From: a virus
Strand: one strand, 5' to 3'
IMG/VR virus record: IMGVR_UViG_3300025881_000010
Coordinates: 1-64,000 of that record
DNA length: 64,000 nt
Position numbers and translations under genes: made by a program. The notes under the pieces are model-generated. The model searched no databases. It was not told where the DNA came from and saw only the letters and a list, made by a program, of their open reading frames with translations. Each line of letters begins with the position of its first letter. Positions within the stretch are counted from its first letter, which is position 1. Shown here piece after piece: positions 5,114 to 49,112 of this stretch.

Positions 5114-5115
5114 TA

Positions 5116-6045: not shown

Positions 6046-6115
6046 AATTTAACTAATCTGAACGCTATAGTAAATAAAGGGCGTTTGGACATAATGACTA
6101 AAATAAATCAGATAT

Positions 6116-6370
6116 ATGAAAACACCATTTTTAGACGAAATGATAAAGGAATTAGGTGGCTATGAAGGAGCTGACCAATCCTACTTATCAAAAACAGGAA
6201 AACAAAAACTTAAGGAGTTTGAAGCAATAAAAGAGCAATTGGAGTTAACCGCAGTTGTGCAGGCGAAGCCAGAAAAAGATGTGTTCGAAAAGCTACATTC
6301 TTATGAAGGACCGATACCATACGGAAAATGCTACAAATGTGGTAAAGAAAAATGGGAACACGACTTTTGA
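6116..6370 (+). CDS. hypothetical protein with C-terminal CxxC..H; reads through a cassette right-end motif
   Basis: Contains GTTAACCGCAGTT at 6244-6256. Confidence 0.6.
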   Translation: MKTPFLDEMIKELGGYEGADQSYLSKTGKQKLKEFEAIKEQLELTAVVQAKPEKDVFEKLHSYEGPIPYGKCYKCGKEKWEHDF

Positions 6371-6497
6371 GCAGTTTTAAGCAAACGCCACATCTTATAA
6401 TCATTTGCGTACTGATCGGTTCTGTCAGATGTAGTTTTAAACCACGTTGCTTAAAATTGTGCCCAACTACGCAGTATAACCGCAGTAAAAAAAATAG

Positions 6498-6531
6498 GGC
6501 GTGGCTTTGAAAAAGCCAAATGAGTATGAGT
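6498..6531 (+). repeat. duplicated 5' leader, copy 1 (copy 2 at 8011-8044)
   Basis: GGCGTGGCTTTGAAAAA(G/T)CCAAATGAGTATGAGT, 33/34 identical between copies. Confidence 0.9.
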
Positions 6532-6556
6532 GAGTATTAACCTAAAAATAGAAATA

Positions 6557-6853
6557 ATGAAGAAAATATTTAAATATGAATTGAGCATTAAGGAAAAACA
6601 AGAAATTGAATTACCGTTAAATGCTGAAATTATTAGAGTTGATGATGTTGAAGGTAGGTTTTTCCTGTGGGCAATGGTTGATGTACAGATTGAAAGCGAA
6701 CCAGAAGTAGAATTTGAAAAAAGATTCCTTGAATTTTATAAGACTGGACAACCAATTAAAACTCCAAGTGAAAACTTAAAATATATTGGTTTTTGTAAAT
6801 TATTTATTATGCAGGAATTAGGATTATATGTATTTGAAAATATATCAAAATGA
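6557..6853 (+). CDS. conserved small phage protein (KIFKY..LP..AEI..LWAMVD..TGQ type)
   Basis: ATG 6557; ATGA-coupled to next gene. Confidence 0.7.
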   Translation: MKKIFKYELSIKEKQEIELPLNAEIIRVDDVEGRFFLWAMVDVQIESEPEVEFEKRFLEFYKTGQPIKTPSENLKYIGFCKLFIMQELGLYVFENISK

Positions 6854-7482
6854 AATACGGAACACTACCAAAGTATATAGGTCAACACGAAATTATATGT
6901 GATGAAATGCTATTTTATCAATATTTGCCTATTAAACTAAAAGATGGAATTGAGCCAATAATGGAAGAAAGGTTAAAGCCTTTTAAAGATTTGGTTGGAA
7001 ATATATGTTGTGATTTCGTTGGAGAATTTGGACTTGATCGTTTTATTAATAGCTATGTTTACTTAACTGCTAAGAAAATGTATCAAATGCCGGGATGCTC
7101 TTTTAATAGAGAAGGATATCATTCAGATGGATTTATGACTGATGATATAAATTATGTATGGTGCGATAAAAACCCAACTATCTTTAACTTTTCTCCTTTT
7201 AATCTAACTTTGGATGATAAAGTTTCTATGAAAGAAATGGAAGAACAAGCTAATCCAGAAGCTATTGAAATATACCCTGAAAATAGTTTATTACGATTAG
7301 ATCAGTTTCAAATTCATAAAGTTTCCGAAATCACAAAGTTAGTTCTAAGGACTTTTATTAAAGTTTCTTTTAGCTCAGATGTTTATGATTTAAAAGGTAA
7401 TTCAAAAAACTATCTTATCGATTATGATTGGGAAATGAGGGATCGTTCTATTACCAGAAATATTCCACAAAAAATAAACTAA
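6850..7482 (+). CDS. putative Fe(II)/2-oxoglutarate-dependent dioxygenase
   Basis: HxD (GYHSDG) ... distal H (IHKV) ... R (RTFIKVS), typical of the DSBH oxygenase fold. Confidence 0.6.
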   Translation: MKYGTLPKYIGQHEIICDEMLFYQYLPIKLKDGIEPIMEERLKPFKDLVGNICCDFVGEFGLDRFINSYVYLTAKKMYQMPGCSFNREGYHSDGFMTDDINYVWCDKNPTIFNFSPFNLTLDDKVSMKEMEEQANPEAIEIYPENSLLRLDQFQIHKVSEITKLVLRTFIKVSFSSDVYDLKGNSKNYLIDYDWEMRDRSITRNIPQKIN

Positions 7483-7494
7483 AAAACAAACAAA

Positions 7495-8007
7495 ATGAAA
7501 AACCTAACCTTAACACTATTATTAATTTTACCATTATCACTAGCAGCTCAATCGGATGTTTACGCCTCTTTTGAGTTTGATCCAAACAAAGCATTTAGTA
7601 TTATTGATAATCCCAGAACCGAAATGGATCACAACGGATTAGACTTTGATTTTGAAATTGGAGCAAGAGGAAATAAAATAGGAATGTATATTTTTTACGG
7701 TCGCTTCGAGAATGCTAACTATCAAAATTACGGTGTAGGATTAGATTACTATCTTGCAAAAGGTTATCGCTATGATATTGGAGTAGGTGCAAACATTCAC
7801 AATATAATGAGGCATCAAACAATTGGAAATGCATCTAACATGGCTTGGGCAACTTATTTAGGTTGGTCGGTTCGTAGTAGATATACTTATTGGATATTAC
7901 CTAAAATTGGAGTATCCGGAGTAATTCAATATACTAGAAGACCTGATATTAATGTAGGTGGAATAGTAGAGGGTAGAGTTGGAGTTGTGGTTAAAGTGGG
8001 GCGGTAG
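7495..8007 (+). CDS. small outer-membrane beta-barrel protein
   Basis: Signal peptide cleaved LAA|Q; repeated amphipathic Gly/Tyr-rich strands (YGVGLDYY, IGVGANI, GRVGVVVKV). Confidence 0.7.
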   Translation: MKNLTLTLLLILPLSLAAQSDVYASFEFDPNKAFSIIDNPRTEMDHNGLDFDFEIGARGNKIGMYIFYGRFENANYQNYGVGLDYYLAKGYRYDIGVGANIHNIMRHQTIGNASNMAWATYLGWSVRSRYTYWILPKIGVSGVIQYTRRPDINVGGIVEGRVGVVVKVGR

Positions 8008-8010
8008 GAT

Positions 8011-8044
8011 GGCGTGGCTTTGAAAAATCCAAATGAGTATGAGT
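8011..8044 (+). repeat. duplicated 5' leader, copy 2
   Basis: Near-identical to 6498-6531. Confidence 0.9.
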
Positions 8045-8072
8045 AAGAATACTAACAATTAAAATAATAATT

Positions 8073-8564
8073 ATGAAATTAATATCAATGACAGACTTTG
8101 TAGAGAAAATCAGGAAAGAATCAAATGTTTCTCCATTTAATGATGAACAAAAAGAAATGGATAATGCTGAATTATATAAGATATTTAATTATGCTCATTT
8201 CCTAAAACAACCACTAAAACTTGAAATGTTTGTGCCATGTGATGAGAAAGGTAATGTTTTGGAAAAGCCTAAGGATTATCAAAAATATATTAAACATAAT
8301 TTTTACGCTTCTAAAGTTTGTAAAACCTATCAAGAAGCCAAAGAAAAAGTGTTGTTTGAAAGTTTTGAAATTGACCTTGAAGAAGGGTGTGGATTTCCTT
8401 TTTTAAATAATCACCCACCTTTTTTCTTTTCAATAGACAATAAATGGGATATTTCTTCTTGTTTTAAAATAATAGAAGATTTGGAAGGCTATAATATTCA
8501 ATTAACAAATACAGCACTAAAACAATTAGGACTTGAAACAAGTATGAACGTCAGCGCCATTTAA
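8073..8564 (+). CDS. hypothetical phage protein (cassette cargo)
   Basis: ORF with A-rich leader; ends at a cassette right arm. Confidence 0.75.
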   Translation: MKLISMTDFVEKIRKESNVSPFNDEQKEMDNAELYKIFNYAHFLKQPLKLEMFVPCDEKGNVLEKPKDYQKYIKHNFYASKVCKTYQEAKEKVLFESFEIDLEEGCGFPFLNNHPPFFFSIDNKWDISSCFKIIEDLEGYNIQLTNTALKQLGLETSMNVSAI

Positions 8565-8779
8565 AAAATTGCGGTTATGCGCAGTTGGCTACTTTGTTTT
8601 GCAAACGTATCTCGTTAATACTTAAAGCGTACAGATCGGCTTATTTTCGGATTACGATTAACACAATGCAAAATATTGTTGCCAACTACGCTGTATAAGA
8701 GCAGAGCCTTTTAAAAACTAACAAAATTAAAAACTATAAACATTAACAGCTTCTTGATTGAAGCCCTAAAATTAAAATT

Positions 8780-9010
8780 ATGACTGAATTTAAAGATTAC
8801 TTAGTAGAATGTAACAATCCTAAATCCTTCGATGAAACTATACAACAACTTGGAAAAGCTGTGTTACATCAAAATCACAAAGGTGAATATGAAAAACACG
8901 AAGGTTATTATTTGATGAGAATAATAGGAGATCCTGGTTATGTAAAATTTGCTATACAAAATCAAGGATATGGTAGAATTATAAAAGAAGCTGAAACGCC
9001 AAATTCTTAA
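8780..9010 (+). CDS. hypothetical protein (single-gene cassette cargo)
   Basis: ORF enclosed by IR arms 8684-8707 / 9025-9045. Confidence 0.75.
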   Translation: MTEFKDYLVECNNPKSFDETIQQLGKAVLHQNHKGEYEKHEGYYLMRIIGDPGYVKFAIQNQGYGRIIKEAETPNS

Positions 9011-9223
9011 AAAACGGAATCTAAGCTTTGCTCTTATACGCAGTTCTTTACAGTTGTGGTGTACGCTAAAAATCTTAAGACAAATGTGCTATGGTGCGTT
9101 AGACTCATTCAGCACCACTATTGTATAGAACTACGCGGGTTAACAAATGAGCCTTTGAAACGAAATTACCTTATTGAAAACGAATTATAAACCGCTTCTT
9201 ATTGGAGCAGAAAAAATCATAAT

Positions 9224-9427
9224 ATGGATATTTTAATACAAATGAAAAAACAATCTTTAAAGAATTATGAAAAAGATTTAGAGAAGAATCTAGGAGAATT
9301 TTATGATGCTTGTGAAGATAATGATGAAGAAAAAATGCTGAAAGTTGCTAAAAAAGGAGCAGGTATAAAAATGATGATTGATTATTTAAAAAAAGATCTT
9401 AAAGAAGCGGAAAACTCTAATTATTAG
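9224..9427 (+). CDS. hypothetical helical protein (single-gene cassette cargo)
   Basis: ORF enclosed by IR arms 9129-9152 / 9440-9460. Confidence 0.75.
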   Translation: MDILIQMKKQSLKNYEKDLEKNLGEFYDACEDNDEEKMLKVAKKGAGIKMMIDYLKKDLKEAENSNY

Positions 9428-9607
9428 AAATTTATACGAGCTTTTTTGTTAACCGCAGTTCTTGCCAGTTTTTTGCAAACGTATTATTCTGAATATCTCC
9501 CGCGCACAAATCGGTTATTATTCGGATAAGTTGGATCTTAAAGCAAAATATTGGCTGGAACTCGGAATAAGCGCAACTTTTTCCTAAATAACTGCGTTTA
9601 TTTTGAC

Positions 9608-9639
9608 AAAAAAAAGCCATCTCGTAGGGAGATGGCTTT
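9608..9639. terminator. intrinsic terminator at the convergence of the + and - gene blocks
   Basis: AAAGCCATCTC-GTAGG-GAGATGGCTTT with A8 run (U-tail on - strand). Confidence 0.85.
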
Positions 9640-9688
9640 AATCTAGAAAACTAAATTGACAGTTAGTAAGAATAGCATTGCTAATATA

Positions 9689-12600
9689 CTAAAACAATTC
9701 AGATATAAAATTATTTGTAGATTGAATTGCCGGAGGAATCATTTTATTAGAAAGTTTTGGGTGATTTATATAGTAATTTGCATCTCCAAATAGATTAGTT
9801 GCTAAATTACTACTTAATGCAGCACCCGCAAATCCAATTACAGTACTCATAGCCATGCCTCTAAGACCGCTATCAAGTTTAGCTCTTTCTTCTTTAGAAA
9901 GCTTATTACGATATTCAACGAATCCACTCGGATCGTTTACCACCTCTCTTACCATATTACCGACAGCTCTAAGGCTACCAATTGTTTCTTGTCCGTAAAT
10001 ATTGACATCTTTTTTAGCAAACCTATCTTGTATCATTGTAGGTATAAATTTGCTAAACTGCATCATCATATTACCCCAAGAATACATCTGCACAGCTCTC
10101 TGATCAGTAGGTTGATAACCTCTTCCATGTGATTGCTTCACTTTATCTTCTAATTGAACAAGCAATTCATTATCAACTTCAGACTCACCTTTTTTATAAT
10201 TTCCTTCATCGTCAAACTTGTTCAATATATCTTCATTTAATAGACCTATCATATGAACACGTTGAATCCACTCTTCACTTTTAGTCATTGGCATAAGCGC
10301 CAGTTCGGAAAACACTTTATCTAAACCATTTTGTTTTTCGATATTCACTTCATCGTAAACATTTATGTCCATGAAATTCAAATTCTTCATTATTCTAGAC
10401 ATACGCTTATGACGATTCAAGACTCCTTCAATTCCACCTTCAAAACCTTTATCTAACCCCCAATATTTCAGCTCTCCATTTATCCAAGTCTTACCACCAA
10501 CATCTTTAATGTTATGGTATTTCCCCACTGCAATATTTCCTAAGACATATAATCCACCTGTATTTTTATTCGCTTGATATCCAAGCGCATAAAATAAGTT
10601 GAGGTTAGTAAGTGTTCTAATCACTTTATCAGTCTTTTCACCCAATAGAGAAGTTTGCCTTTTACCTCTGGTAAAGTAATCTTTCCATACTGTTTGAACA
10701 TGTTCATTCATATATTGAAAGTTATTATCTCTATTGAATGCAAGCACTCCATCAATATAGCTTTGCAACTTCTCCATTCCTTTAAACTTACTGTTTCCAT
10801 TGACAAATAAAGTAGCGTGAACATAATCACTCAAAGCTTTATTTAAGTCCATAGAAGGCAGTTCTTCCGCAGTAACAGAACGGTTATTGGTAAATCTATT
10901 TATAGCGCCAAAACCTAAAGCTGTTTCAATTCCAACTCTATCATATTTGATAGGAGTTCCATCTTCATTTTTTCCTTCCTTCAGTAACTTTAAAGCTTTC
11001 TTTTTAAGATTACGATATTCTACGATTTTACCAATATCGTTTTTGTACTTATCTTGACCTGAATACCTTTTAAAGCTATCTTCAATTTGTCTAAAACTCA
11101 TAAGTTTCTCTTCTCCATATTCATCCTTGAAATTCATTTTAACATCACTCAAAGCTTCATTTTCAGATCTGGAGTTCGCCATTAATCCTAATAAACCTCT
11201 AGCTGAAAATTTTTCAAGTCTTGTCATAGAAGTATGAGGAATATAATCTTCTTTCCTTTTTTCGATTACTTTGGCCGGCATCAACTCACTGGTTGTTTTT
11301 TTGAAAACATTGTAAAAATCATTTTCAGCTTTAGATATTTCACCTCTAGCAAAAGCCGCGGCGATATCTTCTTTTGACTTTAATTTAAAATCGTAAGTGA
11401 TATTACCTTTTTTATCTTCAACACGCTGACGTACTACTAAATTACCATACAGTTTATCGTAAACATTTTGAGCACCGATACCAAAGAAATCTTTCAGTCT
11501 AAAGATTACATTTTTCAAACTTCTATTGGTACCATAACCAAGACGATCTTTATATAAAGCATCAGTAGCTTTATTAATTTCAGTCATGTACTTACGTTTT
11601 TCTCCAATGAAAGTTTTGTATTCTTTCTCTAAAATTCTAGCCATTGCTTGTGCTGAAGGATGATTTGATGGAATTGTAGATCCTGTCATCATATAAGCTT
11701 GTAATCTATTTACATCTTTACCATCATATCCCTTTCCTTCTGTTCCATCTTTCCATAGTTCAGATTGGCTAATCGCTAAACGACTAGCCAATTCTTGTAC
11801 TATTGGAGTAATAACAATTGAGTAAGCATACACATCTTTATTTCCATGGTCCTGATATAATTCCATAAGATCTTCTTCAGATAGATTTGGAATATTAGGA
11901 ACCAATTCTTGAGCAATTCTATTAGCTTCTTTTTTGCTTTTAAGGTATTGCTCATACATTCCAGTTCTAGTAGAATTAGGAACAAGCGAATTAAACTCCA
12001 TTGATCTCTCATACTCTTGCTGAGTGAGCGCTTGTTCTTTTCTGAACAATGGGATATCAAAATCCTCTCTGGCATCCATTCCGGAAACCACAGAAGATTT
12101 TGTCATTTTATCTTTCAGCCTATTTGCTCTATCCTGATAACTCAAATTTGCTTCAACCAATCCTTCTACATTTTTTTTCTTACTATAGTCTGGAGTAGTT
12201 TTATAAGGGCTATAAGTATTGGCAATATCTTCAATCATTGCGATATCTATCTCAGGATTGTAGATACGAGATTTTTTACCATTACGAGTATTCTCATTAT
12301 AAGAAAGTGTATTTGGTATATGGCGTATTTTTTCAGCAGCCATTTTCAATACCTCAACATTTCTACGTCCTGAATCATTGATAGCTTGTAATTGCATAAT
12401 CTCTCTAGCATCAAACTGAGGAAGCTCATATAAAGCTGTTTTTCCTTGTTGACGAACATTGATATACATTGGTTGCCAATTCTCAGTAATAGCTTTCTGG
12501 ATAGCTTTATTCTGTATTATTTGACGAATCACATCGTTAGTAGCTCTAAAGTCTGTTTGGGATTTTAAATAAACTTTAGGGAAACTATTATTCTTAGACA

Positions 12601-15600
12601 TTGATTGTTTCAATGCTATTATAGTTTCCAATTTATCTGTAATCTCTTTAGGAACTTTAGCTACATTCTTATTGACAGCATCTTCATTTGAAGCATAGCT
12701 AATCCAATCACTTGTTTCACGGCCAAAGAATGGAGCCATAGACCTTTTATCTTTCCAGCCATGTTGAACCATGTCATAAAGAATAAGATCATCTTGAAGG
12801 CTTGTAGGGAGTTCTTCGAATTCTTCTTGAATTCGAGTTCTCTCTTCAGCAGTAAAGCTTTCATCTACCATAGAACTACTTGCTGAGATGTATTGATTAT
12901 CTCCAGATAAGTTCATGTTCAAAGCTTTTCTAAAAAGAACACTATTATGAAACCTTGAAACTGTTTTGCTAGGATCATCAACATTCTCTTCTTGAGCCAT
13001 TTTTAAATCATTCACAAATTCAGTCATTTTCTTAAAGATAGAAGTTTCACTTTTTTCATTAAGTAAATCCTGAACGTATGCTTTAGAAATGTTGTTCAAG
13101 CCTATAAGTCTGGAAGTATTGAACTTTAATAAATCTTTAGATATGTTCTCTATTTCCATTGTACTCAACTCCCCACCTAATTTACGTGTTAATGCTTCCA
13201 GCACCTTTTTAGTAGCCGGACGATAAACAGGATTTAGTTTCTCAGAATGTTTTAATGCTTCTTCAGCAGTTCTAAGATATTGTTGAATATCAGGGTTTTT
13301 ACCAAATTCTGAATTGAAAGTAAGATGCTCACTTTCTTTTAGAGTTTTAGAGAAGTCTTGAATCTGTTGGTTCAGAACAAATGGATTAACGTGAATCTTA
13401 TTGTGCCCGGACATGATAGCAGATATCTTTTGTAAATCTCCATTTACTTGAGATAGATTAATCAACGTTTCAAGTATTGCTGGTTGTTGACTTTTATCTT
13501 TGATGTTCTCTATATTGATTTTAAGATCTACATTTTTAGGTCTCTTTTTGAATCCTAATTTTTGATACACATCATTGATAAGTGCAGATGTTTTTTTGCT
13601 AGAATGAAACAAACTACTATTATTTCTATTTGCTTCACTCCATGCTTTAGCTGCATCTGAGTTCAAGATTAAAGCCGTATCTTCTAAAGACACTCCTAAG
13701 TTGATTAGAAGTGTAGCTTGAGCCATATTGTGTTCATCAAAACCAAAAGCATCAGCATAACCATGTTTGGCGTTATCCAATATGATGTTAGCTAATACAG
13801 CAGATTGTTGGTTTCTTGATAAATCTCCACTTACAGTATCTCTAAAAGTATTGTACTTGTTATTACCGATTACGAATCCTTTTTTCAAAGGAGTTTCGTA
13901 AGCGGCTAATAAGTTTGCAATCTTATGTAGATTAAAAATCTTTCCAATATTACGTTTAGAAACCATAGTATTACTATAATCTTGTCTACGTTGCTCTGGA
14001 GAGAAAGGAGCTTTATCTTTTGCAGATTGAGAAAATACTGATTGTACTTTTTCTAAAGCTGGCTGAGCTACTTTTTTAATATCCATTTTAGTTTGGATTT
14101 GTTCAGCCATTTTAGGAGATAACCAATATTGAGTAAGCTTATCAAATGCTTTGTTCCAATCAGCGTATTCTTTTTTATCACCTCTTTTTTGAATGAATAA
14201 AGAATCTCCATCATTATCAGAACCAATGATTTCATTAAATTCTCCGGGAACCATTACCTGATTACCATCAGAACTTTCATCAAACCCTATTACTTCAAAT
14301 ACTCCAGTAGAAGATGGACCATGACCAGGAACACGAGAAGCCATTACAGTTTCACCTTTAACGTAAAACCCTATTGGAACACCACTTTTATTATTGACAG
14401 CACCCATGAATTTTTCATAGTTGTCTTGATTACCGGTTTCTTGGAAAGCTCTTCTTTTAGCTTTTCTAACTGTAAGGCTTTTTAAAGCATCTAATTCTTG
14501 TTCTTTAGTAAAGTCATTCTTATAACTTTTACGTATTCTATCAAGTTCAGATTTATGAGTGTACCGAGTTACATCTTCTCTGGCTTCAGCTTCCTGAGCC
14601 ATGTGCTTAGGTAAAATCATATGTGCAGGACTAAGACTACCATCTATGTTCTTCTCATAACCTAATAAAGTAGGTACAGATGAAACAGTAGCATTTAGAT
14701 TATATCCTGTATCTGGTTTTTGATGTGCATTTGTTCCGGGCGTTTTAAGCTTGTTTCCGGCACGCAAAATCATTTTAGCTAATTGGTTAACGGCAATCTC
14801 ATTTACGTAAGGGTGTGCCACAGAACCAAGCTTATCTTCAAGAATATGACGCTGAGCCTGATCCATATCTTCTTTGTTCAGCTCTCTATCAATAATTTCC
14901 TTGTACTTATCAATTTGACCACTAGCAAGATCTTTAGATATCACATCTAAAGCTTTCATTTTTTGATCAGAAAGATGTTGTTGGATTTCAATAGCTAAAT
15001 CCATTTCTCCATTTAGTGCAGCATTAACCATTATAGAATTAACCATTTGCACAGGAGTATTTGAAGATTTAGTAATCTTATCCATTACTTGTTGAGGTCC
15101 GAAGTTATAAGTTTCAAGACCTACGAAATTTCCTTTATCATCATAATAAAGATCATCTTGCATTTTATCTACATGAGACCAATCTTGTTTTAATGAAGAT
15201 GGGGCCATTCTTTGACCTTCTTCAGTGTATTCCATAGTATCATCATTGTAGAATTTTTGCTTAGCAAAATTCGACTTATCAGAAGATTGAGGCATAGCAA
15301 TAATCAAATGGTTAGGAGTACCATCATTATAATTGTCTGAAGGTAATTGACCATATTGCTTTTCATGCCATTGGTTATACTTATCCATTCTGGCTTTCAT
15401 CATAGGGTAAGCCCAATGATTTTCATCTACGATAGTAGTATATCCTTTTAAGTAACCAAGCTTTCCTTCAAAATTAGGATTGTTCTTTTCAATATGAGAG
15501 TTCAATAGTTTGAAACCATTATTCATATCAAATACACCTTGACCTACTTTTTGCAATTTTTCAGCTTGTTCTTTAAGAATGTACATTCCTGAATCACTTC

Positions 15601-18600
15601 CGGCAATAGATCCATTTACAATTTCATCAGCAAAGAATAAAAATTCACTTTTGAATTCAGGATTTTTTATAGATAATATTGGAGAAGAATTAGCTTTCAT
15701 TCTTTTTAAGATTCCTTTTCCAGTTACACCAGGAAGGAATACATCAGCCACATTAAGACCATGAACAATATTGTTCATCACGTATTCACCAACCATCTTT
15801 TTACCTTCTTTATTCAGAATGTAATTTCCATTTCCTTTATCCCGGATATAAGGTTTTAATGATTTTACATTAGACAACTCATTCAAGTTATCTTCTATAA
15901 ATTTCACTTCATTTTGCATTGCTTCAATAATACTTTTCTTGAAAGCTGCCTTATTATTTGTAACGCTATTATCAGGAAACATAGCACTGGCAAGATTGAA
16001 AGCATTGTTCAATATTTTACCATCAGTTTGCCAATGTCCATTTTCGTCAAATACTTGATCGTATTTAATACGGTTCATGTTCATAAAGAACTTTCTAGGT
16101 GAATCTGAAAATGTTCCCATATTACCTAAGTATTGACGTAATCTTTTACCGTTATCTCCAGTTGAAGTATTTAAAAAAGTAAGTAGATCTTCAACACCTT
16201 GTTCTAAAGCTGTACTGTTTTTAAATAAACTACTTTTCTTATTGTCGATATCTTCAAGTCCATGATATTGACTTATTTGAGGTATCTGGCCATTTTGGAA
16301 GTTGTTGTAAATGTTTACAAGGAACTCATTATTATGATAAGCTTTATTATCTCTGTTTTCGAAAATAGAATCTTTGAATTCTTTATTGAAAGCAGCTTCA
16401 GATACACGAGAACCTTTTTTGTCTTTCAACAAAAATGTTCTCATTTTTTTAATATCATTCTTATCTATTTGAGGAAATTGTTCTTGAAGTGTAGTTTCTG
16501 AAGGAACTCTTTTAATTCCATTAGGATCTACAGCTTTATAGATTTTACTCAATGAAGCTTCTCCCATAGCTGTAGTAGATTTTCTCTTTTTGAATTTACT
16601 ACCGGTATGAGAATACCTATCCATGAATTGATCTAATGTAGGTTTACCAGCTCCATCTTGTCCATGAAGATATTCAACCATATTATCAATCTCATTTGTC
16701 ATGTGATTGTTAGCAATTCTGGATTGCTCCATATTACCTTCAGCATTTAATACTGAACTATATTCAGTGTACTTGCGATTGGTATTTTGTAAAGCTTCAA
16801 CTAGATTACGGAAACCATAAACATATAAACTCTCTTTATTGTAAGTTCCATTTTCAAATCTGTTGTACACATAATCTCTTTTTAGATATCCGGAAACTAA
16901 AGTTTCAATTGGGATATTAAGACCATCATAAGTAATATAACCACTCTTCCAAAATCTAGCTTCATTAAAACTACCATCAGTTAGATTATTGATCACATTG
17001 AAATAATCACTTTCAGTTTCTACACCTTTTTGAATGTTTAAAACTGATTGCCTGAAATTGGCCCATTGCTCTGTTTTACCATCAAGTTTTTCACGAAGAT
17101 TGGCAATAACATTGTTGGTGATGTTCTTTTCTCTAATAGATAAAGAATCATGCATCTCATGTATGATTTCTCCATCTGAACCTTTCTTGATTACATTTCG
17201 AATACCATTAACGTGCTTCGCATTTGAAAACACGAAGTACATACCATTAAGCAATTGTAGCTTATCATCTTTTTTAGTTTTATCTAAAAAGTCATTAAAG
17301 TCTATCATTTCTTTAATAGCGGAGTTTTCAACTTGATAAATGAAATCTACTGCAGATTTGGATTCTTTAGCAAGATTGTACATTTCAGATTCAAATAGAT
17401 GTCTTTCAAATAAAGGCTCTTCATTAAGATCTACATCTCTTCTTGATACATTGTCTTTAAGGAATTTTCTACGAATAGATTTATTGTAGATAATACCAAA
17501 CCTCTTAATGATTTTTGAAGCACCTTTAGCTTGTTGCTTGAATTCTTTAGCAGAAAATGGATTTCCAGTTTCTTCTAATTCATCTTCATATTCATCCATG
17601 TAATCTTGGTCAAACTTTTCTTCCCAAAGTTTGTCAGGATCTTTCTTGATTGTCTTAGACATTCTTTGACGAATATCATCAAGCTTAGCAGCACGTTGAG
17701 TTTTAATCTTTCCAACTCTGGCATCCATTCCGATACCATCCATTTTTATACCTTCAGTAACAGCCTTAAAAGTATCAAGTATGAAATTCTTAGGATTTCC
17801 TTTAGGAACATTAGTTTGATCATCAGCTAATTTTCTAATCATTTGCTGAACACCATTTTCACCATCTTCAATTACTTCTCCCTTACGTCTAAGCATGCCC
17901 CAAAACTTCTTAACTTCTTTTTGGCGCTTCGCTTCTTTTTGGCTGAAAATTTTATCGAAATTATCAGCTAAAGGATTTTGCAATGCTCTGGTGAACATTT
18001 CTTCTAATAAGTAATGTTGTTCATTTAATGGAACTGTAGAAATACCATCATCTTCTAAACTAAGATATTTAGCAAGTTCACTTTCTAAATCTTCATCTTT
18101 AACTCCATCAGATTTGAACATCTCAAAGAATTGACCTTTAGTATATCTTTCGTTTCCTAATTGATATAAAGTCAAATCATCATACTTACTTCTTATCTCA
18201 CGAACAAGTTCTTTATTGGCTAATGCCATTTTTAATATTTCTTGAGTTTCTGGAGCATCTTTAGCTAACTTGTAATAGATGTGTGAAAGCTCATGCATAA
18301 AAACCCAATCTTGTTCCCAGGCTTTTTCATCAATGAACATTGTAGCCGCAAGTGAATGACCTACACCTACAGAACCGATAGCTTCATACATGTTTTTCAC
18401 AATAATTACTTGTGCCGGATCTTTTAGATTCTCAGGAAACATTCTTTTTAATTGGTGATTTACCAATACCATTTTATCTAAGTTGGAAGGACCCATCTCA
18501 TTATACATGGTAGAACTATTCAAGTAATTGTCTAGTTCATTTTGAGAAATGTTAGTTTGAGTGCTAATTCTACTACGAGATAATTTACTTAGAAACTTCA

Positions 18601-21598
18601 TTTTCTTAATGAAGCTTCTATAGTTTTTAGCGAAAATTGTACTTGTTTGATCTCGGGCATCCATTCCAAGATTCTCTTCTGAACCTTTAGTTTTATTACG
18701 ATCAATCTTCCAAGCAGATTTTGCATTATCAGCTTTATTACGAGCATCCATTCCTAAAGAAGATGCTTTTTTATACTTCTTAGTTTTGCGAGATTTTATG
18801 AATTCTTTTTCATCATCTGAAACATCTTCATCATCAATATCGTCTGAAGTATCATCATCCTGATTATCTATACTATCATCCGGATTATCGGGATTGTTGT
18901 CTGGATTTTCGGGATTATCAGGATCTATATTATCATCAGTATTAATAGGATTTACTTTATCAATACCAAGCATTTTATTGACGATAGCATTTTTAACAGC
19001 ATCTCTATTTTTAACTCTGATATCTTCTTGACGATTGGTAAGCTCTCCATTATTCATGATAGCTTCAGCAATACCATTTAAAGTTTCAGGACTTACTTCT
19101 CCAGTCTCTTCAAATTGCTTGAAATCTTCATCTGATACTGTTTCATTTTCATCTGTAACAACAGCTTCCTCAGCCATCTGTTCAGCTTCAGCTTCCGCAG
19201 CTTGTTGAGCTTCTTTAGATTTCTTACCTGTTACATTATCAACTTGATCACTTTGAAATTTCTTTTTAGCAACTTTTAGTTCTTCATCAAACCTAGCATT
19301 GATTTCTTTGATATCGGTTTCATCTTCGACACCTTCAAGTTCTGCAGCACGTTGTTCTTCAATACCGGCTTTCGCTTTTTTGAATTCATCATAACCTTTA
19401 GTAGCGTTGTCAATTTTTTCTTCAGCATTCTTCATGAAAGGACTGGTAATATTTTTCAGCCATTTATTGAAGTTAGATCCTGCAGATTTGATTTCTGGCA
19501 ATACACTACTTTTCTCTCCAGCTTTTGTAAAAGCTTTAAAGTCTTTACGAGATAAACCAGTAACAACTATTTCATTCCCAAATTGATCATATTCTACTTC
19601 TACATCAATTGGGTTTGCACGTTTACCTAAAATAAGATTACGTTGATTCTGCATTGCTTCTTGTTGCATTTGACCTAAACCAAAAGCACGTTTTTTGAAC
19701 AAGTCTTTTTCTTGTTGAATCTTCTTTAGAATTTCATTTTGTTCTGATTTGATTTTAGCAGCTTCTTCTCTGGAAACTTTTCCTTCCGGACGAAGACTGT
19801 CAATCATCATATTTAATTTCTCAATACGCTTATTTGCTTGTACCTGATAAGTTTCAATTTGAGATTGAGCATATCCTTCTTCAGCTTTGTTTTGTAACAA
19901 AGCTTGAAGTCCTTTGACATTTAGAAGTTTTCCTTCTTGTTTAACCTTGTCAAATTCTTCATACATCTGATCAAAACGTTTCTTTTCTTCTTCATTGATA
20001 TTTTCGTTTTCTATCAATTTATTCATGAAGTTGTTGTAAACATCTTTTCCTGTTTTTTCATCAATAACAAGATCAGCTATTTGCTTACGAACATGCATTT
20101 CTTGAAATGTAAGTTCTTTTTCAGTTCCTTGCTTTTTAGTTATTTCTTCAAAATTTTTGATTCTATTATGAAGCTTATGAGATTCATCAGCTTTCTTATC
20201 TATAAGATCTCCAATATTAAATACAGAACCACCAAGCGCACCCATAGCTGCAGAAAGAACTATAGTACCTCTGTTTTCTTTAGACTTATAGAATTCCCAA
20301 AAACCTCCCGGATTAAATAGCTTATCATCTCCCTCACCTGTAACCTCAGCAATAGCTTTCTTTTTAGACCATTCTTCAAATGATTCTTGGAAAGTTTCTT
20401 CCAATCCTTCAAATCCAGCTTTACCCGCAACCTTAGCAATACCTTTGATAATAGGAGCAACATCATAACTAAACATTTTAGCAATAGTAGCACTAGAACC
20501 ATTTTTAGCCATATTCATGCCCTTAGTGATAGGGTTAAGTCCTTTAAGTGCTTTCCATCCACCACCGAAAGTAAGTCCAAAAGAAGCCATATCTACAGCC
20601 ATCCAAGCTGCATTGTTTCTAATAGTAGAAGCAGCCATTTGTGAAAGATCATCTTCATTGAAGATTAAATTTCCTTGAGCATCTTTTAAGTCTTTATTAG
20701 AGTTTACAACCTCAGCAGCATTTAATACTCCAGATAAAATGTTACCTGTAAAACCACCACCAATTGCTTCTACTCCCATTCCAGCAGCTTTAGTCAATCC
20801 TTGATCAGAAACAAGCTTACCAATAATACCTTGTCCACTACCAAAAACTTCTTTACCTAAAGCATTTCTTGTAGCATTTTTAGCTACTGTTTTTGCCACT
20901 CCCTCAGCACCTTCTTGAAGACCTTTTTCAACAATACCTTTAGCGATACCACTAGCTGTTCTTTTAGCTAAAGCACCACCACCTTTTGATAAGAATATAA
21001 ATTCTGCAAGTTGAGGTATCATTTCTGCAGCATGAATACTCCAAAATTTAGGATCCATCATAGAACCAAATGTCAAATTCTCAGACATTAGTTCTTCTGG
21101 AATATATGCTTTGTATTTAGATTCTATTTCGGCACCAGTTTCTTGAAGATATCTTGAAAATGGATTTCCTGTAGCAATACTTTGTCCAGGAACAATTGCG
21201 GAAGCAACTTGGATTAAATCTCCAGTTCCTTTTACAATATGTTTACCAACACCTCTGGCTATACTTTTTGCTGATTCTTCCCAAAAATCACGCATGGTAA
21301 ATTCAGCAGACCAAGCATTATTTCCTTTTTCAAGCTCTCCAGTACTTGCTACAGAAACACCACCTAATTGCTCTGAAGCAACTTTAGTATTTCTATTGAC
21401 TTCATTTTCTTGGGGAGTTCCTAAGTCGTCAGGCATTGGCATAGCTTGACCAGCTTGTTGTTGTCCTTGATTTCTATATCTAGGATCTAAATACCTTTCA
21501 TCCGTTCTTTCTTCAGCTAACGACGGGTTTTCGGGGGGAGCTTGCGAACTGGCTTTTTGGGTTTGAGCCTTATTCACAATGTCTAAAAAATCAGGCAT
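9689..21598 (-). CDS. virion-packaged two-barrel RNA polymerase polyprotein with zincin protease domain (crAss-like vRNAP)
   Basis: 3969 aa; SRVP..G and catalytic GSDNDGD (14204-14218); HELSH zincin motif (18281-18295); Gly/Ala hydrophobic N-terminal region; last gene after the ejection genes, as in crAss-like phages. Confidence 0.85.
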   Translation of the reverse strand: MPDFLDIVNKAQTQKASSQAPPENPSLAEERTDERYLDPRYRNQGQQQAGQAMPMPDDLGTPQENEVNRNTKVASEQLGGVSVASTGELEKGNNAWSAEFTMRDFWEESAKSIARGVGKHIVKGTGDLIQVASAIVPGQSIATGNPFSRYLQETGAEIESKYKAYIPEELMSENLTFGSMMDPKFWSIHAAEMIPQLAEFIFLSKGGGALAKRTASGIAKGIVEKGLQEGAEGVAKTVAKNATRNALGKEVFGSGQGIIGKLVSDQGLTKAAGMGVEAIGGGFTGNILSGVLNAAEVVNSNKDLKDAQGNLIFNEDDLSQMAASTIRNNAAWMAVDMASFGLTFGGGWKALKGLNPITKGMNMAKNGSSATIAKMFSYDVAPIIKGIAKVAGKAGFEGLEETFQESFEEWSKKKAIAEVTGEGDDKLFNPGGFWEFYKSKENRGTIVLSAAMGALGGSVFNIGDLIDKKADESHKLHNRIKNFEEITKKQGTEKELTFQEMHVRKQIADLVIDEKTGKDVYNNFMNKLIENENINEEEKKRFDQMYEEFDKVKQEGKLLNVKGLQALLQNKAEEGYAQSQIETYQVQANKRIEKLNMMIDSLRPEGKVSREEAAKIKSEQNEILKKIQQEKDLFKKRAFGLGQMQQEAMQNQRNLILGKRANPIDVEVEYDQFGNEIVVTGLSRKDFKAFTKAGEKSSVLPEIKSAGSNFNKWLKNITSPFMKNAEEKIDNATKGYDEFKKAKAGIEEQRAAELEGVEDETDIKEINARFDEELKVAKKKFQSDQVDNVTGKKSKEAQQAAEAEAEQMAEEAVVTDENETVSDEDFKQFEETGEVSPETLNGIAEAIMNNGELTNRQEDIRVKNRDAVKNAIVNKMLGIDKVNPINTDDNIDPDNPENPDNNPDNPDDSIDNQDDDTSDDIDDEDVSDDEKEFIKSRKTKKYKKASSLGMDARNKADNAKSAWKIDRNKTKGSEENLGMDARDQTSTIFAKNYRSFIKKMKFLSKLSRSRISTQTNISQNELDNYLNSSTMYNEMGPSNLDKMVLVNHQLKRMFPENLKDPAQVIIVKNMYEAIGSVGVGHSLAATMFIDEKAWEQDWVFMHELSHIYYKLAKDAPETQEILKMALANKELVREIRSKYDDLTLYQLGNERYTKGQFFEMFKSDGVKDEDLESELAKYLSLEDDGISTVPLNEQHYLLEEMFTRALQNPLADNFDKIFSQKEAKRQKEVKKFWGMLRRKGEVIEDGENGVQQMIRKLADDQTNVPKGNPKNFILDTFKAVTEGIKMDGIGMDARVGKIKTQRAAKLDDIRQRMSKTIKKDPDKLWEEKFDQDYMDEYEDELEETGNPFSAKEFKQQAKGASKIIKRFGIIYNKSIRRKFLKDNVSRRDVDLNEEPLFERHLFESEMYNLAKESKSAVDFIYQVENSAIKEMIDFNDFLDKTKKDDKLQLLNGMYFVFSNAKHVNGIRNVIKKGSDGEIIHEMHDSLSIREKNITNNVIANLREKLDGKTEQWANFRQSVLNIQKGVETESDYFNVINNLTDGSFNEARFWKSGYITYDGLNIPIETLVSGYLKRDYVYNRFENGTYNKESLYVYGFRNLVEALQNTNRKYTEYSSVLNAEGNMEQSRIANNHMTNEIDNMVEYLHGQDGAGKPTLDQFMDRYSHTGSKFKKRKSTTAMGEASLSKIYKAVDPNGIKRVPSETTLQEQFPQIDKNDIKKMRTFLLKDKKGSRVSEAAFNKEFKDSIFENRDNKAYHNNEFLVNIYNNFQNGQIPQISQYHGLEDIDNKKSSLFKNSTALEQGVEDLLTFLNTSTGDNGKRLRQYLGNMGTFSDSPRKFFMNMNRIKYDQVFDENGHWQTDGKILNNAFNLASAMFPDNSVTNNKAAFKKSIIEAMQNEVKFIEDNLNELSNVKSLKPYIRDKGNGNYILNKEGKKMVGEYVMNNIVHGLNVADVFLPGVTGKGILKRMKANSSPILSIKNPEFKSEFLFFADEIVNGSIAGSDSGMYILKEQAEKLQKVGQGVFDMNNGFKLLNSHIEKNNPNFEGKLGYLKGYTTIVDENHWAYPMMKARMDKYNQWHEKQYGQLPSDNYNDGTPNHLIIAMPQSSDKSNFAKQKFYNDDTMEYTEEGQRMAPSSLKQDWSHVDKMQDDLYYDDKGNFVGLETYNFGPQQVMDKITKSSNTPVQMVNSIMVNAALNGEMDLAIEIQQHLSDQKMKALDVISKDLASGQIDKYKEIIDRELNKEDMDQAQRHILEDKLGSVAHPYVNEIAVNQLAKMILRAGNKLKTPGTNAHQKPDTGYNLNATVSSVPTLLGYEKNIDGSLSPAHMILPKHMAQEAEAREDVTRYTHKSELDRIRKSYKNDFTKEQELDALKSLTVRKAKRRAFQETGNQDNYEKFMGAVNNKSGVPIGFYVKGETVMASRVPGHGPSSTGVFEVIGFDESSDGNQVMVPGEFNEIIGSDNDGDSLFIQKRGDKKEYADWNKAFDKLTQYWLSPKMAEQIQTKMDIKKVAQPALEKVQSVFSQSAKDKAPFSPEQRRQDYSNTMVSKRNIGKIFNLHKIANLLAAYETPLKKGFVIGNNKYNTFRDTVSGDLSRNQQSAVLANIILDNAKHGYADAFGFDEHNMAQATLLINLGVSLEDTALILNSDAAKAWSEANRNNSSLFHSSKKTSALINDVYQKLGFKKRPKNVDLKINIENIKDKSQQPAILETLINLSQVNGDLQKISAIMSGHNKIHVNPFVLNQQIQDFSKTLKESEHLTFNSEFGKNPDIQQYLRTAEEALKHSEKLNPVYRPATKKVLEALTRKLGGELSTMEIENISKDLLKFNTSRLIGLNNISKAYVQDLLNEKSETSIFKKMTEFVNDLKMAQEENVDDPSKTVSRFHNSVLFRKALNMNLSGDNQYISASSSMVDESFTAEERTRIQEEFEELPTSLQDDLILYDMVQHGWKDKRSMAPFFGRETSDWISYASNEDAVNKNVAKVPKEITDKLETIIALKQSMSKNNSFPKVYLKSQTDFRATNDVIRQIIQNKAIQKAITENWQPMYINVRQQGKTALYELPQFDAREIMQLQAINDSGRRNVEVLKMAAEKIRHIPNTLSYNENTRNGKKSRIYNPEIDIAMIEDIANTYSPYKTTPDYSKKKNVEGLVEANLSYQDRANRLKDKMTKSSVVSGMDAREDFDIPLFRKEQALTQQEYERSMEFNSLVPNSTRTGMYEQYLKSKKEANRIAQELVPNIPNLSEEDLMELYQDHGNKDVYAYSIVITPIVQELASRLAISQSELWKDGTEGKGYDGKDVNRLQAYMMTGSTIPSNHPSAQAMARILEKEYKTFIGEKRKYMTEINKATDALYKDRLGYGTNRSLKNVIFRLKDFFGIGAQNVYDKLYGNLVVRQRVEDKKGNITYDFKLKSKEDIAAAFARGEISKAENDFYNVFKKTTSELMPAKVIEKRKEDYIPHTSMTRLEKFSARGLLGLMANSRSENEALSDVKMNFKDEYGEEKLMSFRQIEDSFKRYSGQDKYKNDIGKIVEYRNLKKKALKLLKEGKNEDGTPIKYDRVGIETALGFGAINRFTNNRSVTAEELPSMDLNKALSDYVHATLFVNGNSKFKGMEKLQSYIDGVLAFNRDNNFQYMNEHVQTVWKDYFTRGKRQTSLLGEKTDKVIRTLTNLNLFYALGYQANKNTGGLYVLGNIAVGKYHNIKDVGGKTWINGELKYWGLDKGFEGGIEGVLNRHKRMSRIMKNLNFMDINVYDEVNIEKQNGLDKVFSELALMPMTKSEEWIQRVHMIGLLNEDILNKFDDEGNYKKGESEVDNELLVQLEDKVKQSHGRGYQPTDQRAVQMYSWGNMMMQFSKFIPTMIQDRFAKKDVNIYGQETIGSLRAVGNMVREVVNDPSGFVEYRNKLSKEERAKLDSGLRGMAMSTVIGFAGAALSSNLATNLFGDANYYINHPKLSNKMIPPAIQSTNNFISELF

Positions 21599-49092: not shown

Positions 49093-49112
49093 TTTCAAAA
49101 ATTTATGTTAAA

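What the first reader, a model, noticed from the sequence alone, without database searches (positions are those of the whole stretch)
12068..18754. Four GMDAR motifs partition the 3969-aa vRNAP polyprotein: candidate self-cleavage sites for its zincin protease
Seen: the exact pentapeptide GMDAR occurs at aa ~949 (18740-18754), ~978 (18653-18667), ~1290 (17717-17731) and ~3173 (12068-12082), in dissimilar linker contexts. I did not see it in any other protein here. The sites define an N-terminal membrane/coiled-coil part, a ~310-aa segment with HELSH..EE (zincin), a ~1880-aa segment with the DxDGD polymerase centre, and a ~800-aa C-terminal part. Known: crAss-like vRNAP-region proteins often contain zincin domains and processing has been proposed. 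Inference: this is the recognition sequence that releases the mature RNAP and ejectosome pieces.
Basis: partly seen in the sequence, partly recalled or inferred. Interest (0 to 1): 0.8.

Follow-up and report, generated by a model that had tools for sequence, protein, structure and literature searches.

The report
Junction motifs in crAss-like polyprotein
A 3969-residue protein that a marine crAss-like phage packs into its particle carries the same five-residue peptide (GMDAR) at each seam between its modules. Relatives carry their own private peptide at the same seams, which is the pattern expected of cleavage sites that evolve together with a built-in protease, but no cutting has been measured.

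Summary
GMDAR occurs four times, at the stated coordinates and nowhere else in the window. None of 2000 shuffles gave any 5-mer four times. Three copies (aa 978, 1290, 3173) lie at orthologous junctions, A, B and C, that are conserved in more than 100 fused homologues. The copy at aa 949 is private to this phage.

The motif is specific to each lineage but repeated within each protein. Examples are G[LMF]D[AK]R, GNAS, GR[AFY]x, ARFKL, VREQR, RAKKA and KSKKLK, typically exactly three copies per roughly 4000 residues and none in flanking genes.

Junctions A and B bracket a 307-aa module with invariant HExxH...E. The modules run in the same order as the separate phi14:2 genes: N matches gp67, R matches gp66 (the RNAP) and C matches gp65. 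So the junctions fall between modules that are separate genes in phi14:2.

The best reading (about 0.55) is that these are self-processing sites of the embedded metallopeptidase. Three things are not shown: cleavage itself, the scissile bond, and a zincin fold (structure searches were inconclusive).

The general idea is already published (Drobysheva 2020/21; Iyer 2017). The sites and their co-variation were not in the literature I searched. This scan has noted analogous junction motifs in other crAss-like genomes (e1-6022186, e1-6078438, e1-5984760, e1-6078468).

The parts
9689..21598 (-). Polyprotein ORF of 3969 aa (P0001), a fused form of the crAss-like virion RNAP block
   Evidence: More than 100 fused homologues of 3.7-4.5 kaa.
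18755..21598 (-). N module (aa 1-948, ~104 kDa): conserved Gly-rich and hydrophobic segments followed by a charged, coiled-coil-like region. Homologous to the N-terminal part of phi14:2 gp67.
   Evidence: hhalign of A7 against gp67: prob 95.9, E 5.7e-9. No match to gp65. Hydropathy.
18740..18754 (-). Site A1, GMDAR at aa 949-953: an extra copy private to this phage
   Evidence: homologues have G[EK]S[IL]xD here, not the motif. AF2 pLDDT is below 50.
18668..18739 (-). 24-aa basic spacer between the two A copies (aa 954-977)
18653..18667 (-). Site A2, GMDAR at aa 978-982: conserved junction A between the N and Z modules
   Evidence: D980 and R982 are at least 90% conserved. Logo. Motif conservation is 0.69 against 0.40 in the flanks. 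pLDDT is below 50.
17732..18652 (-). Z module (aa 983-1289, ~34 kDa): putative metallopeptidase, bracketed by junctions A and B
   Evidence: H1102, E1103, H1106, Y1139, Q1194 and E1200 are invariant in 30 sequences down to 13% identity. The AF2 core has pLDDT 80.
18281..18295 (-). HELSH (aa 1102-1106), the HExxH motif
17999..18001 (-). E1200, an invariant Glu on a downstream helix and candidate third metal ligand
17717..17731 (-). Site B, GMDAR at aa 1290-1294: junction B between the Z and R modules
   Evidence: R1294 is invariant. Logo. Motif conservation is 0.74 against 0.45 in the flanks.
12083..17716 (-). R module (aa 1295-3172, ~207 kDa): virion RNA polymerase, homologous to phi14:2 gp66
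   Evidence: hhalign of A3 against gp66: prob 94.6, E 6.5e-8. GSDNDGD aligns to GSDFDID.
14204..14218 (-). DNDGD (aa 2461-2465), the catalytic DxDxD motif of the RNAP
12068..12082 (-). Site C, GMDAR at aa 3173-3177: junction C between the R and C modules
   Evidence: G3173 is the only invariant residue of the junction across three clades. Logo. Motif conservation is 0.75 against 0.49 in the flanks.
9692..12067 (-). C module (aa 3178-3969, ~87 kDa): homologous to the C-terminal part of phi14:2 gp65
   Evidence: hhalign of A6 against gp65: prob 96.2, E 2.5e-9. No match to gp67.

Best explanation
The 3969-aa protein is a self-processing cargo polyprotein of a Crassvirales-type phage. It is a colinear fusion of four modules: a gp67-like N module, a ~307-aa HExxH...E metallopeptidase-like module, the gp66-like virion RNA polymerase, and a gp65-like C module. 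The short peptide G-[M/L/F]-D-x-R, here GMDAR, marks each seam. The proposal is that the embedded peptidase recognises this peptide and cuts at or next to it. It would first cut at its own two flanks (junctions A and B, probably in cis) and then at junction C. The products would be about 104, 34, 207 and 87 kDa, plus a 29-residue peptide specific to this phage. Cutting would occur after packaging or on ejection, so that one translation product delivers equal amounts of all modules, which then pass through the tail separately.

Shown here: the motif is real, it is conserved at orthologous junctions, it co-varies within lineages, it is exclusive to the polyprotein, the putative catalytic residues are invariant, and the modules are colinear with separate genes in phi14:2.

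Inferred: that the motif is cut at all, that the HExxH module does the cutting, which bond is cut, and when.
For: (1) GMDAR occurs four times with 0.0015 expected, and 0 of 2000 shuffles match this. Codons differ between copies.
(2) In 26 core-clade homologues (36-52% identity), G, D and R of the motif are kept at three orthologous junctions. These are conservation islands (0.69-0.75) within poorly conserved linkers (0.40-0.49).
(3) More distant lineages carry a different peptide, yet the same one at their own three junctions. Examples are G.AS, GR[AFY]x, KSKKLK, [VI]MRRK, ARFKL, V[RV]EQR, [FYV]RE[KR]R, RAKK[AD], GK[HF][SF]K and GMA[LE][SA]. In most lineages tested there are exactly three copies against 0.00-0.5 expected.
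(4) The site-A hits in two clades were predicted from patterns derived only from sites B and C.
(5) In unbiased tests, 23 of 101 proteins reach at most 2 of 200 within-window shuffles. A protein's junction B resembles its own junction C more than the junction C of other family members (mean percentile 0.74; Wilcoxon p = 4e-10).
(6) L004 lost the Arg at both B (GMDAL) and C (GMDAV).
(7) The lineage motifs are absent from about 100,000 aa of flanking ORFs in 18 loci and from the rest of this genome.
(8) Junctions A and B bracket the module with invariant H1102, E1103, H1106 and E1200. The only other HExxH in a frame of at least 100 aa in the genome is an HEDVH in an 857-aa ORF that was not examined.
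(9) No S78, S77 or ClpP prohead protease was found in a genome rated 100% complete.
(10) Homology is specific and colinear: N to gp67, R to gp66, C to gp65.
(11) Published hypotheses fit this reading: fused crAss-like polyproteins are 'likely cleaved' (bioRxiv 10.1101/2020.03.07.982082), and zincin-like peptidases are proposed to autoprocess polyvalent virion proteins (PMC5512222).
Against: There is no experimental evidence of cleavage in this family.

The HExxH module matches no Pfam or PHROG family, no PDB sequence and no solved or viral predicted fold convincingly (best Z 6.1). Its predicted strands follow the HExxH helix rather than preceding it, unlike the canonical zincin core.

P0018 has EELSH instead of HExxH but keeps GFESR, GLESR and GQEAR. 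That implies either that Glu can substitute as a ligand or that something else reads the motif.

N4 vRNAP, which also carries an HExxH domain, is discussed in the literature as packaged full-length.

Site B is predicted at the start of a helix (pLDDT ~71), not in an obviously disordered loop.

For roughly 60% of homologues the unbiased statistic finds no significant repeat, because the motifs are short.

Many of the patterns were written after seeing the sites.
Confidence: 0.55

Rival explanations
1. The motifs are cleavage sites, but another protease cuts them. It could be an unrecognised phage-encoded maturation protease or a host protease. The HExxH module would then have a different job, such as peptidoglycan or host-protein cleavage, or encapsidation.
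For: P0018 lacks the first His of HExxH yet keeps all three motifs. A zincin fold is not confirmed. Many ORFs of this genome have no annotation. Drobysheva et al. also suggest peptidoglycan digestion as a role for the zincin.
Against: No S78, S77 or ClpP-type protease was found in a genome rated complete. The motifs are absent from the capsid, portal, scaffold-position and cargo-position proteins, unlike the substrates of T4- or phiKZ-type prohead proteases. Rapid lineage-specific motif turnover fits a co-inherited reader better than conserved host proteases. Two of the three sites flank the HExxH module.
Confidence: 0.15
2. The motifs are not cut. They are docking or recognition tags at module seams or module starts. 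A co-evolving phage partner such as the portal, the capsid interior, a chaperone or the ejection channel would read them, for loading or ordered ejection of the cargo.
For: Co-variation and exclusivity are equally expected for a binding tag. At junction C the motif runs directly into the conserved start of the C module. Stand-alone Crassvirales proteins gp66, gp65 and the cr271_1 giant protein share an N-terminal peptide, M[AS]CK[IL], which suggests an N-terminal tag function. An earlier scan note on other crAss cargo proteins (e1-6027295) favoured an uncut tag.
Against: The junctions fall between modules that are separate genes in phi14:2. A conserved HExxH...E module is always embedded between two of the motifs. 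A 440-kDa uncut chain would have to pass through a narrow tail, and crAss001 cargo is said to need partial unfolding.
Confidence: 0.2
3. The repeats have no shared function. They are chance, or a structural capping preference of linkers.
For: The motifs are short. Several lineage patterns were defined after the fact. About 60% of homologues give no significant 3-way repeat.
Against: 0 of 2000 shuffles reproduce the repeat. The motifs are conserved at orthologous junctions across more than 25 sequences. At least eight unrelated motif classes each recur at the same three junctions. The own-versus-other test gives p = 4e-10.
Confidence: 0.03

Closest known systems
Cellulophaga phage phi14:2 gp67 / gp66 (virion RNAP, PDB 6VR4) / gp65, and the 'huge polyprotein' of other crAss-like phages (Drobysheva et al., bioRxiv 10.1101/2020.03.07.982082; Nature 2021)
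   Same: The modules occur in the same order, with profile-level homology for all three. There is a DxDxD catalytic motif and an HExxH module within the block. The authors already proposed that fused forms are cleaved.
   Different: Here everything is one ORF. The HExxH module lies upstream of the RNAP, whereas in phi14:2 it is at the N-terminus of gp65, downstream of the RNAP. Identity is too low for HMM or BLAST detection. No cleavage sites were defined in that work.
Polyvalent proteins with zincin-like metallopeptidase domains (Iyer, Burroughs, Anand, de Souza, Aravind 2017, PMC5512222)
   Same: A giant multidomain protein delivered in the virion, with an embedded HExxH...E domain predicted to process it autoproteolytically. 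HExxxH variants also occur in both. The protein-atlas neighbours carry LPD23 and LPD1, domains associated with polyvalent proteins (a lead only).
   Different: No Pfam LPD or MPTase model matches. That paper predicts processing from domain architecture. It describes no junction motifs and no site/protease co-variation.
Self-processing polyproteins of eukaryotic RNA viruses (picornavirus 3C, potyvirus NIa, alphavirus nsP2); from general knowledge
   Same: One translation product. The protease is embedded and flanked by its own sites. A short consensus is repeated at every junction and differs between virus lineages.
   Different: The protease class differs (a presumed metallopeptidase rather than Cys/Ser). 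This is a DNA phage, the products are virion cargo rather than a replicase, and nothing is shown experimentally.
Prohead-protease maturation codes of T4 (gp21, L/I-x-E) and phiKZ (gp175, S/A/G-x-E, which also trims vRNAP subunits); from general knowledge
   Same: A short motif defines where packaged head proteins, including virion RNAP subunits, are cut.
   Different: In those systems a separate protease cuts many different head proteins. Here the motif is confined to one protein, and no such protease gene was found.
Phage N4 vRNAP gp50 (PMC13434306)
   Same: A giant ejected virion RNAP with an HExxH (zincin-like) subdomain.
   Different: It is an unrelated T7-like RNAP core. It is described as a single ~3500-residue chain, and no repeated junction motif is reported.

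Membership tests
Zincin-like metallopeptidase (gluzincin/MPTase) | HExxH motif on a helix | tested here: met
   HELSH at aa 1102-1106 lies in predicted helix 63-76 of the core model. It is conserved in about 100 of 105 full-length homologues. The exceptions are P0018 (EELSH) and two lineages with HExxxH.
Zincin-like metallopeptidase (gluzincin/MPTase) | Third metal ligand (Glu) on a downstream helix | tested here: inconclusive
   E1200 is invariant in 30 sequences down to 13% identity and lies in a predicted helix. Its geometry relative to the two His residues could not be inspected.
Zincin-like metallopeptidase (gluzincin/MPTase) | Zincin core fold (three-stranded sheet, N-terminal helix, two C-terminal helices) | tested here: inconclusive
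   The AF2 core model has pLDDT 80. Foldseek against PDB and BFVD and VIA-align gave no convincing match (best Z 6.1; lethal-factor/Certhrax rows at Z ~4). The predicted strands follow the HExxH helix.
Zincin-like metallopeptidase (gluzincin/MPTase) | Match to a curated peptidase family model | tested here: inconclusive
   No Pfam, PHROG or PDB-sequence hit. The LPD23 and LPD1 models did not match.
Zincin-like metallopeptidase (gluzincin/MPTase) | Proteolytic activity | not testable with these tools
   This needs expression and assay.
Crassvirales virion RNAP block (gp67/gp66/gp65-like) | Homology to the gp66 RNAP core with a DxDxD motif | tested here: met
   hhalign prob 94.6, E 6.5e-8, over 662 columns. 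GSDNDGD aligns to GSDFDID. D2461, D2463 and D2465 are invariant.
Crassvirales virion RNAP block (gp67/gp66/gp65-like) | Flanking modules homologous to gp67 and gp65, in the same order | tested here: met
   The cross-comparisons were negative.
Crassvirales virion RNAP block (gp67/gp66/gp65-like) | crAss-type virion gene context | tested here: met
   Pfam CrAss_Ring_1 on window 42467-43486. PHROG hits for portal, TerL and MCP. The gene order resembles phi14:2.
Self-processing viral polyprotein | The same short motif at every module junction, conserved at orthologous positions | tested here: met
Self-processing viral polyprotein | Sites change in concert within a lineage (co-variation with a co-inherited reader) | tested here: met
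Self-processing viral polyprotein | Junctions correspond to boundaries of independent products in relatives | tested here: met
   The module order matches separate phi14:2 genes. About 504 profile columns remain between the aligned RNAP core and junction C, against 518 residues to the C-terminus of gp66. This length match is only suggestive.
Self-processing viral polyprotein | Cleavage products observed | not testable with these tools
   No proteomic data are available for this family.
Prohead-protease maturation system (S78 / S77 / ClpP-S14 type) | A dedicated protease gene in the genome | tested here: not met
   PF04586, PF03420 and PF00574 gave no match in the 82.5-kb record rated 100% complete. 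The PF03420 control rang nowhere, so that one search carries little weight.
Prohead-protease maturation system (S78 / S77 / ClpP-S14 type) | The motif is also present in capsid, scaffold, portal or other head proteins | tested here: not met

The most novel reading that the evidence does not exclude
Crassvirales cargo polyproteins carry a private 'cleavage code'. Each lineage has its own 4-6-residue junction peptide that co-evolves with an embedded, previously unclassified HExxH...E peptidase. The peptidase would cut the ~440-kDa precursor into a channel/ejection module, the protease, the virion RNA polymerase and an RNAP-associated module. That would give dozens of naturally orthogonal protease/site pairs and the first defined maturation step for crAss-like virion RNAPs.
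Probability: 0.5. Interest if true: 0.8.

Novelty: new variant of a known kind. Interest (0 to 1): 0.68.

Why it matters
crAss-like phages are among the most abundant viruses in guts and oceans. How their giant virion RNA polymerase proteins are matured, packed and ejected is an open question, and cleavage has been proposed but never mapped.

This analysis gives exact, testable candidate sites at aa 949, 978, 1290 and 3173 here, and at the equivalent positions in more than 100 relatives. It names a candidate protease with specific residues to mutate (H1102, E1103, H1106, E1200). It also provides an evolutionary signature, lineage-private motifs repeated at all junctions, that would be hard to explain without a co-evolving reader.

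If confirmed, this would be a polyprotein strategy in a tailed DNA phage like that of RNA viruses. It would define the mature ends of the RNAP for structural work and offer a panel of orthogonal protease/site pairs.

Tried and rejected
Pfam and PHROG searches on the whole protein and on the HExxH core found no family.

PDB sequence and profile searches with the whole protein, A2 and A3 found nothing meaningful. gp66/6VR4 was not detected by HMM, only by hhalign.

Fold searches gave no convincing match. I ran Foldseek against PDB on the long model, VIA-align wide on both models, and Foldseek against BFVD on the core.

Complex prediction of the HExxH core with the junction-C segment scored 0.18, below the mark. 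That is no verdict, neither for nor against.

The protein atlas pointed to LPD23 and LPD1, but those Pfam models do not match the genome.

tblastn against INPHARED found nothing for aa 900-1700. For the RNAP core it found only a weak hit (E 4e-3) to the crAss-like phage cr271_1.

A metagenome-contig scan with a single protein found no relative.

The apparent 'split' forms ending at junction B (P0092, P0096, P0068, P0039) are rejected as evidence. A locus 89% identical to P0092 is fused. P0039, which ends ...FGAAARF, could not be verified.

hhalign of the HExxH core against gp65 and gp67 was not significant (E 0.23 and 0.13), so homology of the two HExxH modules is unproven.

The first 6-mer pairwise statistic was too noisy for the distant clades, and one script timed out.

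I looked for an association between broken HExxH spacing and loss of the motif. Only two lineages are affected, which is too few to say anything.
Full report
OBSERVATION. The window carries one ORF of 3969 aa on the minus strand, at 9689-21598. A six-frame scan finds no other copy in the window. From composition, 0.0015 copies are expected. In 2000 residue shuffles, no 5-mer ever reached four copies, and three copies occurred in 30. The four copies use different Ala and Arg codons, so selection acts on the peptide. HELSH (aa 1102) and DNDGD (aa 2461) are as stated, and the segments between sites measure 307, 1878 and 792 aa.

WHAT THE PHAGE IS. The window is part of an 82.5-kb virus record that CheckV rates 100% complete. 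It has PHROG hits for portal, large terminase and major head protein, and a Pfam CrAss_Ring_1 tail-ring protein. Its gene layout resembles that of Cellulophaga phage phi14:2, including a GroEL gene. It is a Crassvirales-type phage but is remote from catalogued ones: tblastn against INPHARED gives only a weak hit to a crAss-like giant protein.

CONSERVATION. A word-indexed search found 19 full-length homologues at 34-49% identity. An IMG/VR scan added 35 loci at 20-51% identity. An exhaustive profile search found 136 proteins. Essentially all complete members are fused proteins of 3.7-4.5 kaa. In the 26 core-clade sequences the motif sits at three orthologous junctions.
- Junction A is phi-G-[FLM]-D-[KA]-R.
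- Junction B is [FY]-G-[ML]-D-[AQ]-R-[AV].
- Junction C is G-[ML]-D-A-R-E-D-[FY].
G, D and R are kept in 17-25 of 25-26 sequences at each site. R1294 is invariant. D980, R982, A3176 and R3177 are at least 90% conserved. The motifs are conservation islands (0.69-0.75) in linkers that are less conserved (0.40-0.49) than the protein average of 0.58. The copy at aa 949 has no counterpart in other sequences, so the family has three sites and this phage has an extra one, 29 residues upstream of junction A.

CO-VARIATION, THE KEY RESULT. In more distant lineages the junction peptide is different, but it is again the same at all junctions of one protein.
- L007, L008 and L016 have GNAS / G[FH]AS / GNAS.
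- L010, L021, L025 and L027 have GR[AFYR][AFYS] three times.
- L023 and L038 have [KR]SK[KR][LM]K three times (0.00-0.01 expected).
- L035 and L036 have [VI][LM][RE][RKQ][RK] three times.
For the first two clades I wrote the pattern from junctions B and C only. It then located a third copy at the expected place upstream of the HExxH module, which is an out-of-sample confirmation.

Among the representatives, further unrelated classes appear. Each occurs exactly three times and only at the junctions: ARFKL (P0069), V[RV]EQR (P0086), [FYV]RE[KR]R (P0084), RAKK[AD] (P0087), GK[HF][SF]K (P0046), GMA[LE][SA] (P0053), and others.

Within the core clade, L004 replaced the Arg at both B (GMDAL) and C (GMDAV). 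P0018, P0020 and L018 use Glu for Asp at several sites.

Two tests without hand-made patterns agree.
- I ran a 3-way best-5-mer search in HMM-anchored windows, with within-window shuffles as the null. At most 2 of 200 shuffles matched the observed score for 23 of 101 proteins, where about 1 would be expected.
- A protein's junction B resembles its own junction C more than the junction C of other members. The mean percentile is 0.74, and 35% of proteins are above the 90th percentile. Wilcoxon p is 4e-10 for B-C, 6e-4 for A-C, and not significant for A-B.
Two caveats apply. The sequences are phylogenetically related, so these p-values overstate independence. The motifs are short, so about 60% of proteins give no significant signal on their own.

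EXCLUSIVITY. In this genome the relaxed motif occurs only at the four polyprotein sites and once in the GroEL-like gene. In 18 related loci the lineage motif never occurs in about 100,000 aa of flanking frames, which include the conserved upstream genes. No S78, S77 or ClpP-type prohead protease is detectable. The only other HExxH in a frame of at least 100 aa is an HEDVH in an 857-aa ORF that was not examined further.

THE MODULES. Junctions A and B bracket a 307-aa module. In it, H1102, E1103, H1106, Y1139, Q1194 and E1200 are invariant across 30 sequences down to 13% identity. AlphaFold2 with this alignment gives a confident core (pLDDT 80; 80-95 around the motif helices). Both A copies fall in a linker with pLDDT below 50, and site B falls at the start of a helix with pLDDT ~71.

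Profile-profile comparison shows that the four-part protein is colinear with three separate genes of phi14:2.
- The N module matches gp67 (prob 95.9, E 5.7e-9).
- The R module matches the gp66 RNAP (prob 94.6, E 6.5e-8, with GSDNDGD aligned to GSDFDID).
- The C module matches the C-terminal part of gp65 (prob 96.2, E 2.5e-9).
The cross-comparisons were negative. After the aligned RNAP core, about 504 profile columns remain to junction C, against 518 residues to the C-terminus of gp66. This agreement is suggestive only. So the junctions lie between units that are independent gene products elsewhere in the order. One difference stands out: the HExxH module lies upstream of the RNAP here, but at the N-terminus of gp65, downstream of the RNAP, in phi14:2.

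MECHANISM PROPOSED. The most economical reading is a self-processing polyprotein. The embedded metallopeptidase-like module recognises the lineage's junction peptide. It frees itself at A and B and separates the RNAP from the C module at C. The slightly different flavours of the three sites (Lys at position 4 of A, Glu-Asp-Phe after C) could set an order of cleavage, as in RNA-virus polyproteins. This last point is inference. Across clades the Gly is the only invariant junction residue at C, so the cut is probably adjacent to it, but the bond cannot be assigned computationally. A single precursor would guarantee equal amounts of the modules in the capsid. Cutting would let them pass one at a time through a tail that is narrow enough to need partial unfolding of cargo in crAss001 (PMC10172136).

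WHAT IS AGAINST OR MISSING. Nothing shows that any bond is cut. The HExxH module matches no curated family, no PDB sequence and no solved or viral predicted fold convincingly. Its predicted strand order differs from the canonical zincin core described by Iyer et al.. So it works like a gluzincin by signature, but membership is unproven. P0018 has EELSH yet keeps its three motifs. Two lineages have HExxxH, a variant that Iyer et al. also report. An uncut docking tag read by a co-evolving partner would produce the same evolutionary pattern. Stand-alone gp66, gp65 and the cr271_1 giant protein share an N-terminal M[AS]CK[IL] peptide, which keeps that rival alive. The apparent short forms ending at junction B turned out to be assembly fragments, or could not be verified.

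COMPARISON WITH WHAT IS KNOWN. [quoted passage not shown] Iyer et al. proposed that zincin-like peptidases autoprocess polyvalent virion proteins. Neither defines sites. A full-text search for crAss-like + polyprotein + RNA polymerase + cleavage site returned nothing, and 'GMDAR' appears in no relevant paper. The concept is therefore known. What is new here is the mapped sites, their orthology, the lineage-private co-variation and the colinearity with gp67/gp66/gp65.

Other windows of this scan report analogous junction motifs in other crAss-like vRNAP polyproteins: KFSS[FY], [FL]xDNF[QD][DE], [IV]H[PL]SP[LI] and [FY]xA[IL][TS]S. That fits the picture of lineage-private codes, but I did not check those notes here.

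VERDICT. My confidence is about 0.55 for self-processing by the embedded peptidase, 0.15 for another protease, 0.2 for an uncut tag, and 0.03 for no shared function. I class it as a new variant of a known kind, with interest 0.68.

Noticed in passing
L045 (phi14:2) 9266-15808(-) and 4998-9263(-); L003 6925-20787(+): Stand-alone Crassvirales RNAP-block proteins begin with a shared peptide: gp66 MACKIEN, gp65 MSCKLQT, the cr271_1 4620-aa protein MSCKIQV. Distant homologues P0105, P0131 and P0149 begin MACQL, MACEI and MSCKI. gp67 ends ...NTIC and gp66 ends ...KQECK. This may be a relic junction motif or an N-terminal tag.
   Followed up: partly
window 55601-57253 (-), aa 494: The GroEL-like protein carries GFDAR. 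It is the only other match to the relaxed junction motif in the 82.5-kb genome. It is probably the conserved chaperonin G-[FY]-[DN]-A element, but I did not check whether it co-varies with the motif in relatives.
   Followed up: no
window ~16349-16501 (-), aa ~1700-1750 of the polyprotein: A stretch of about 50 aa inside the RNAP module has no aligned counterpart in the 25 other core-clade homologues. It looks like a private insertion, rich in Lys.
   Followed up: no
P0018 aa ~1086; L026 and L031 (and P0076, P0064): There are active-site variants of the HExxH module: EELSH in P0018, and HEYGGH and HELTGH (HExxxH spacing) in two lineages. All keep Y1139, Q1194 and E1200. No repeated junction motif was detected in the two HExxxH lineages, but the sample is too small to interpret.
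   Followed up: partly
L008 aa 1499; L016 aa 1445: The GNAS-type clade has a fourth motif copy (G[IL]AS) about 125 aa downstream of junction B, inside what aligns to the start of the RNAP module. It is a possible extra processing site.
   Followed up: no
window 17732-18652 (-) compared with L045 4998-9263 (-): The HExxH module sits upstream of the RNAP in this family, but at the N-terminus of gp65, downstream of the RNAP, in phi14:2. The protease-like module may have moved as a cassette, flanked here by junction motifs.
   Followed up: partly
window 18740-18760 (-), aa 947-953: The private extra site (aa 949) arose where relatives have a conserved G-[EK]-S-[IL]-x-D element, with the Gly aligned to the motif's Gly.
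   Followed up: no
window 48037-49098 (-): A 353-aa ORF lies between the portal and major head protein genes, the usual position of a scaffold or protease. It has no Pfam or PHROG match.
   Followed up: partly
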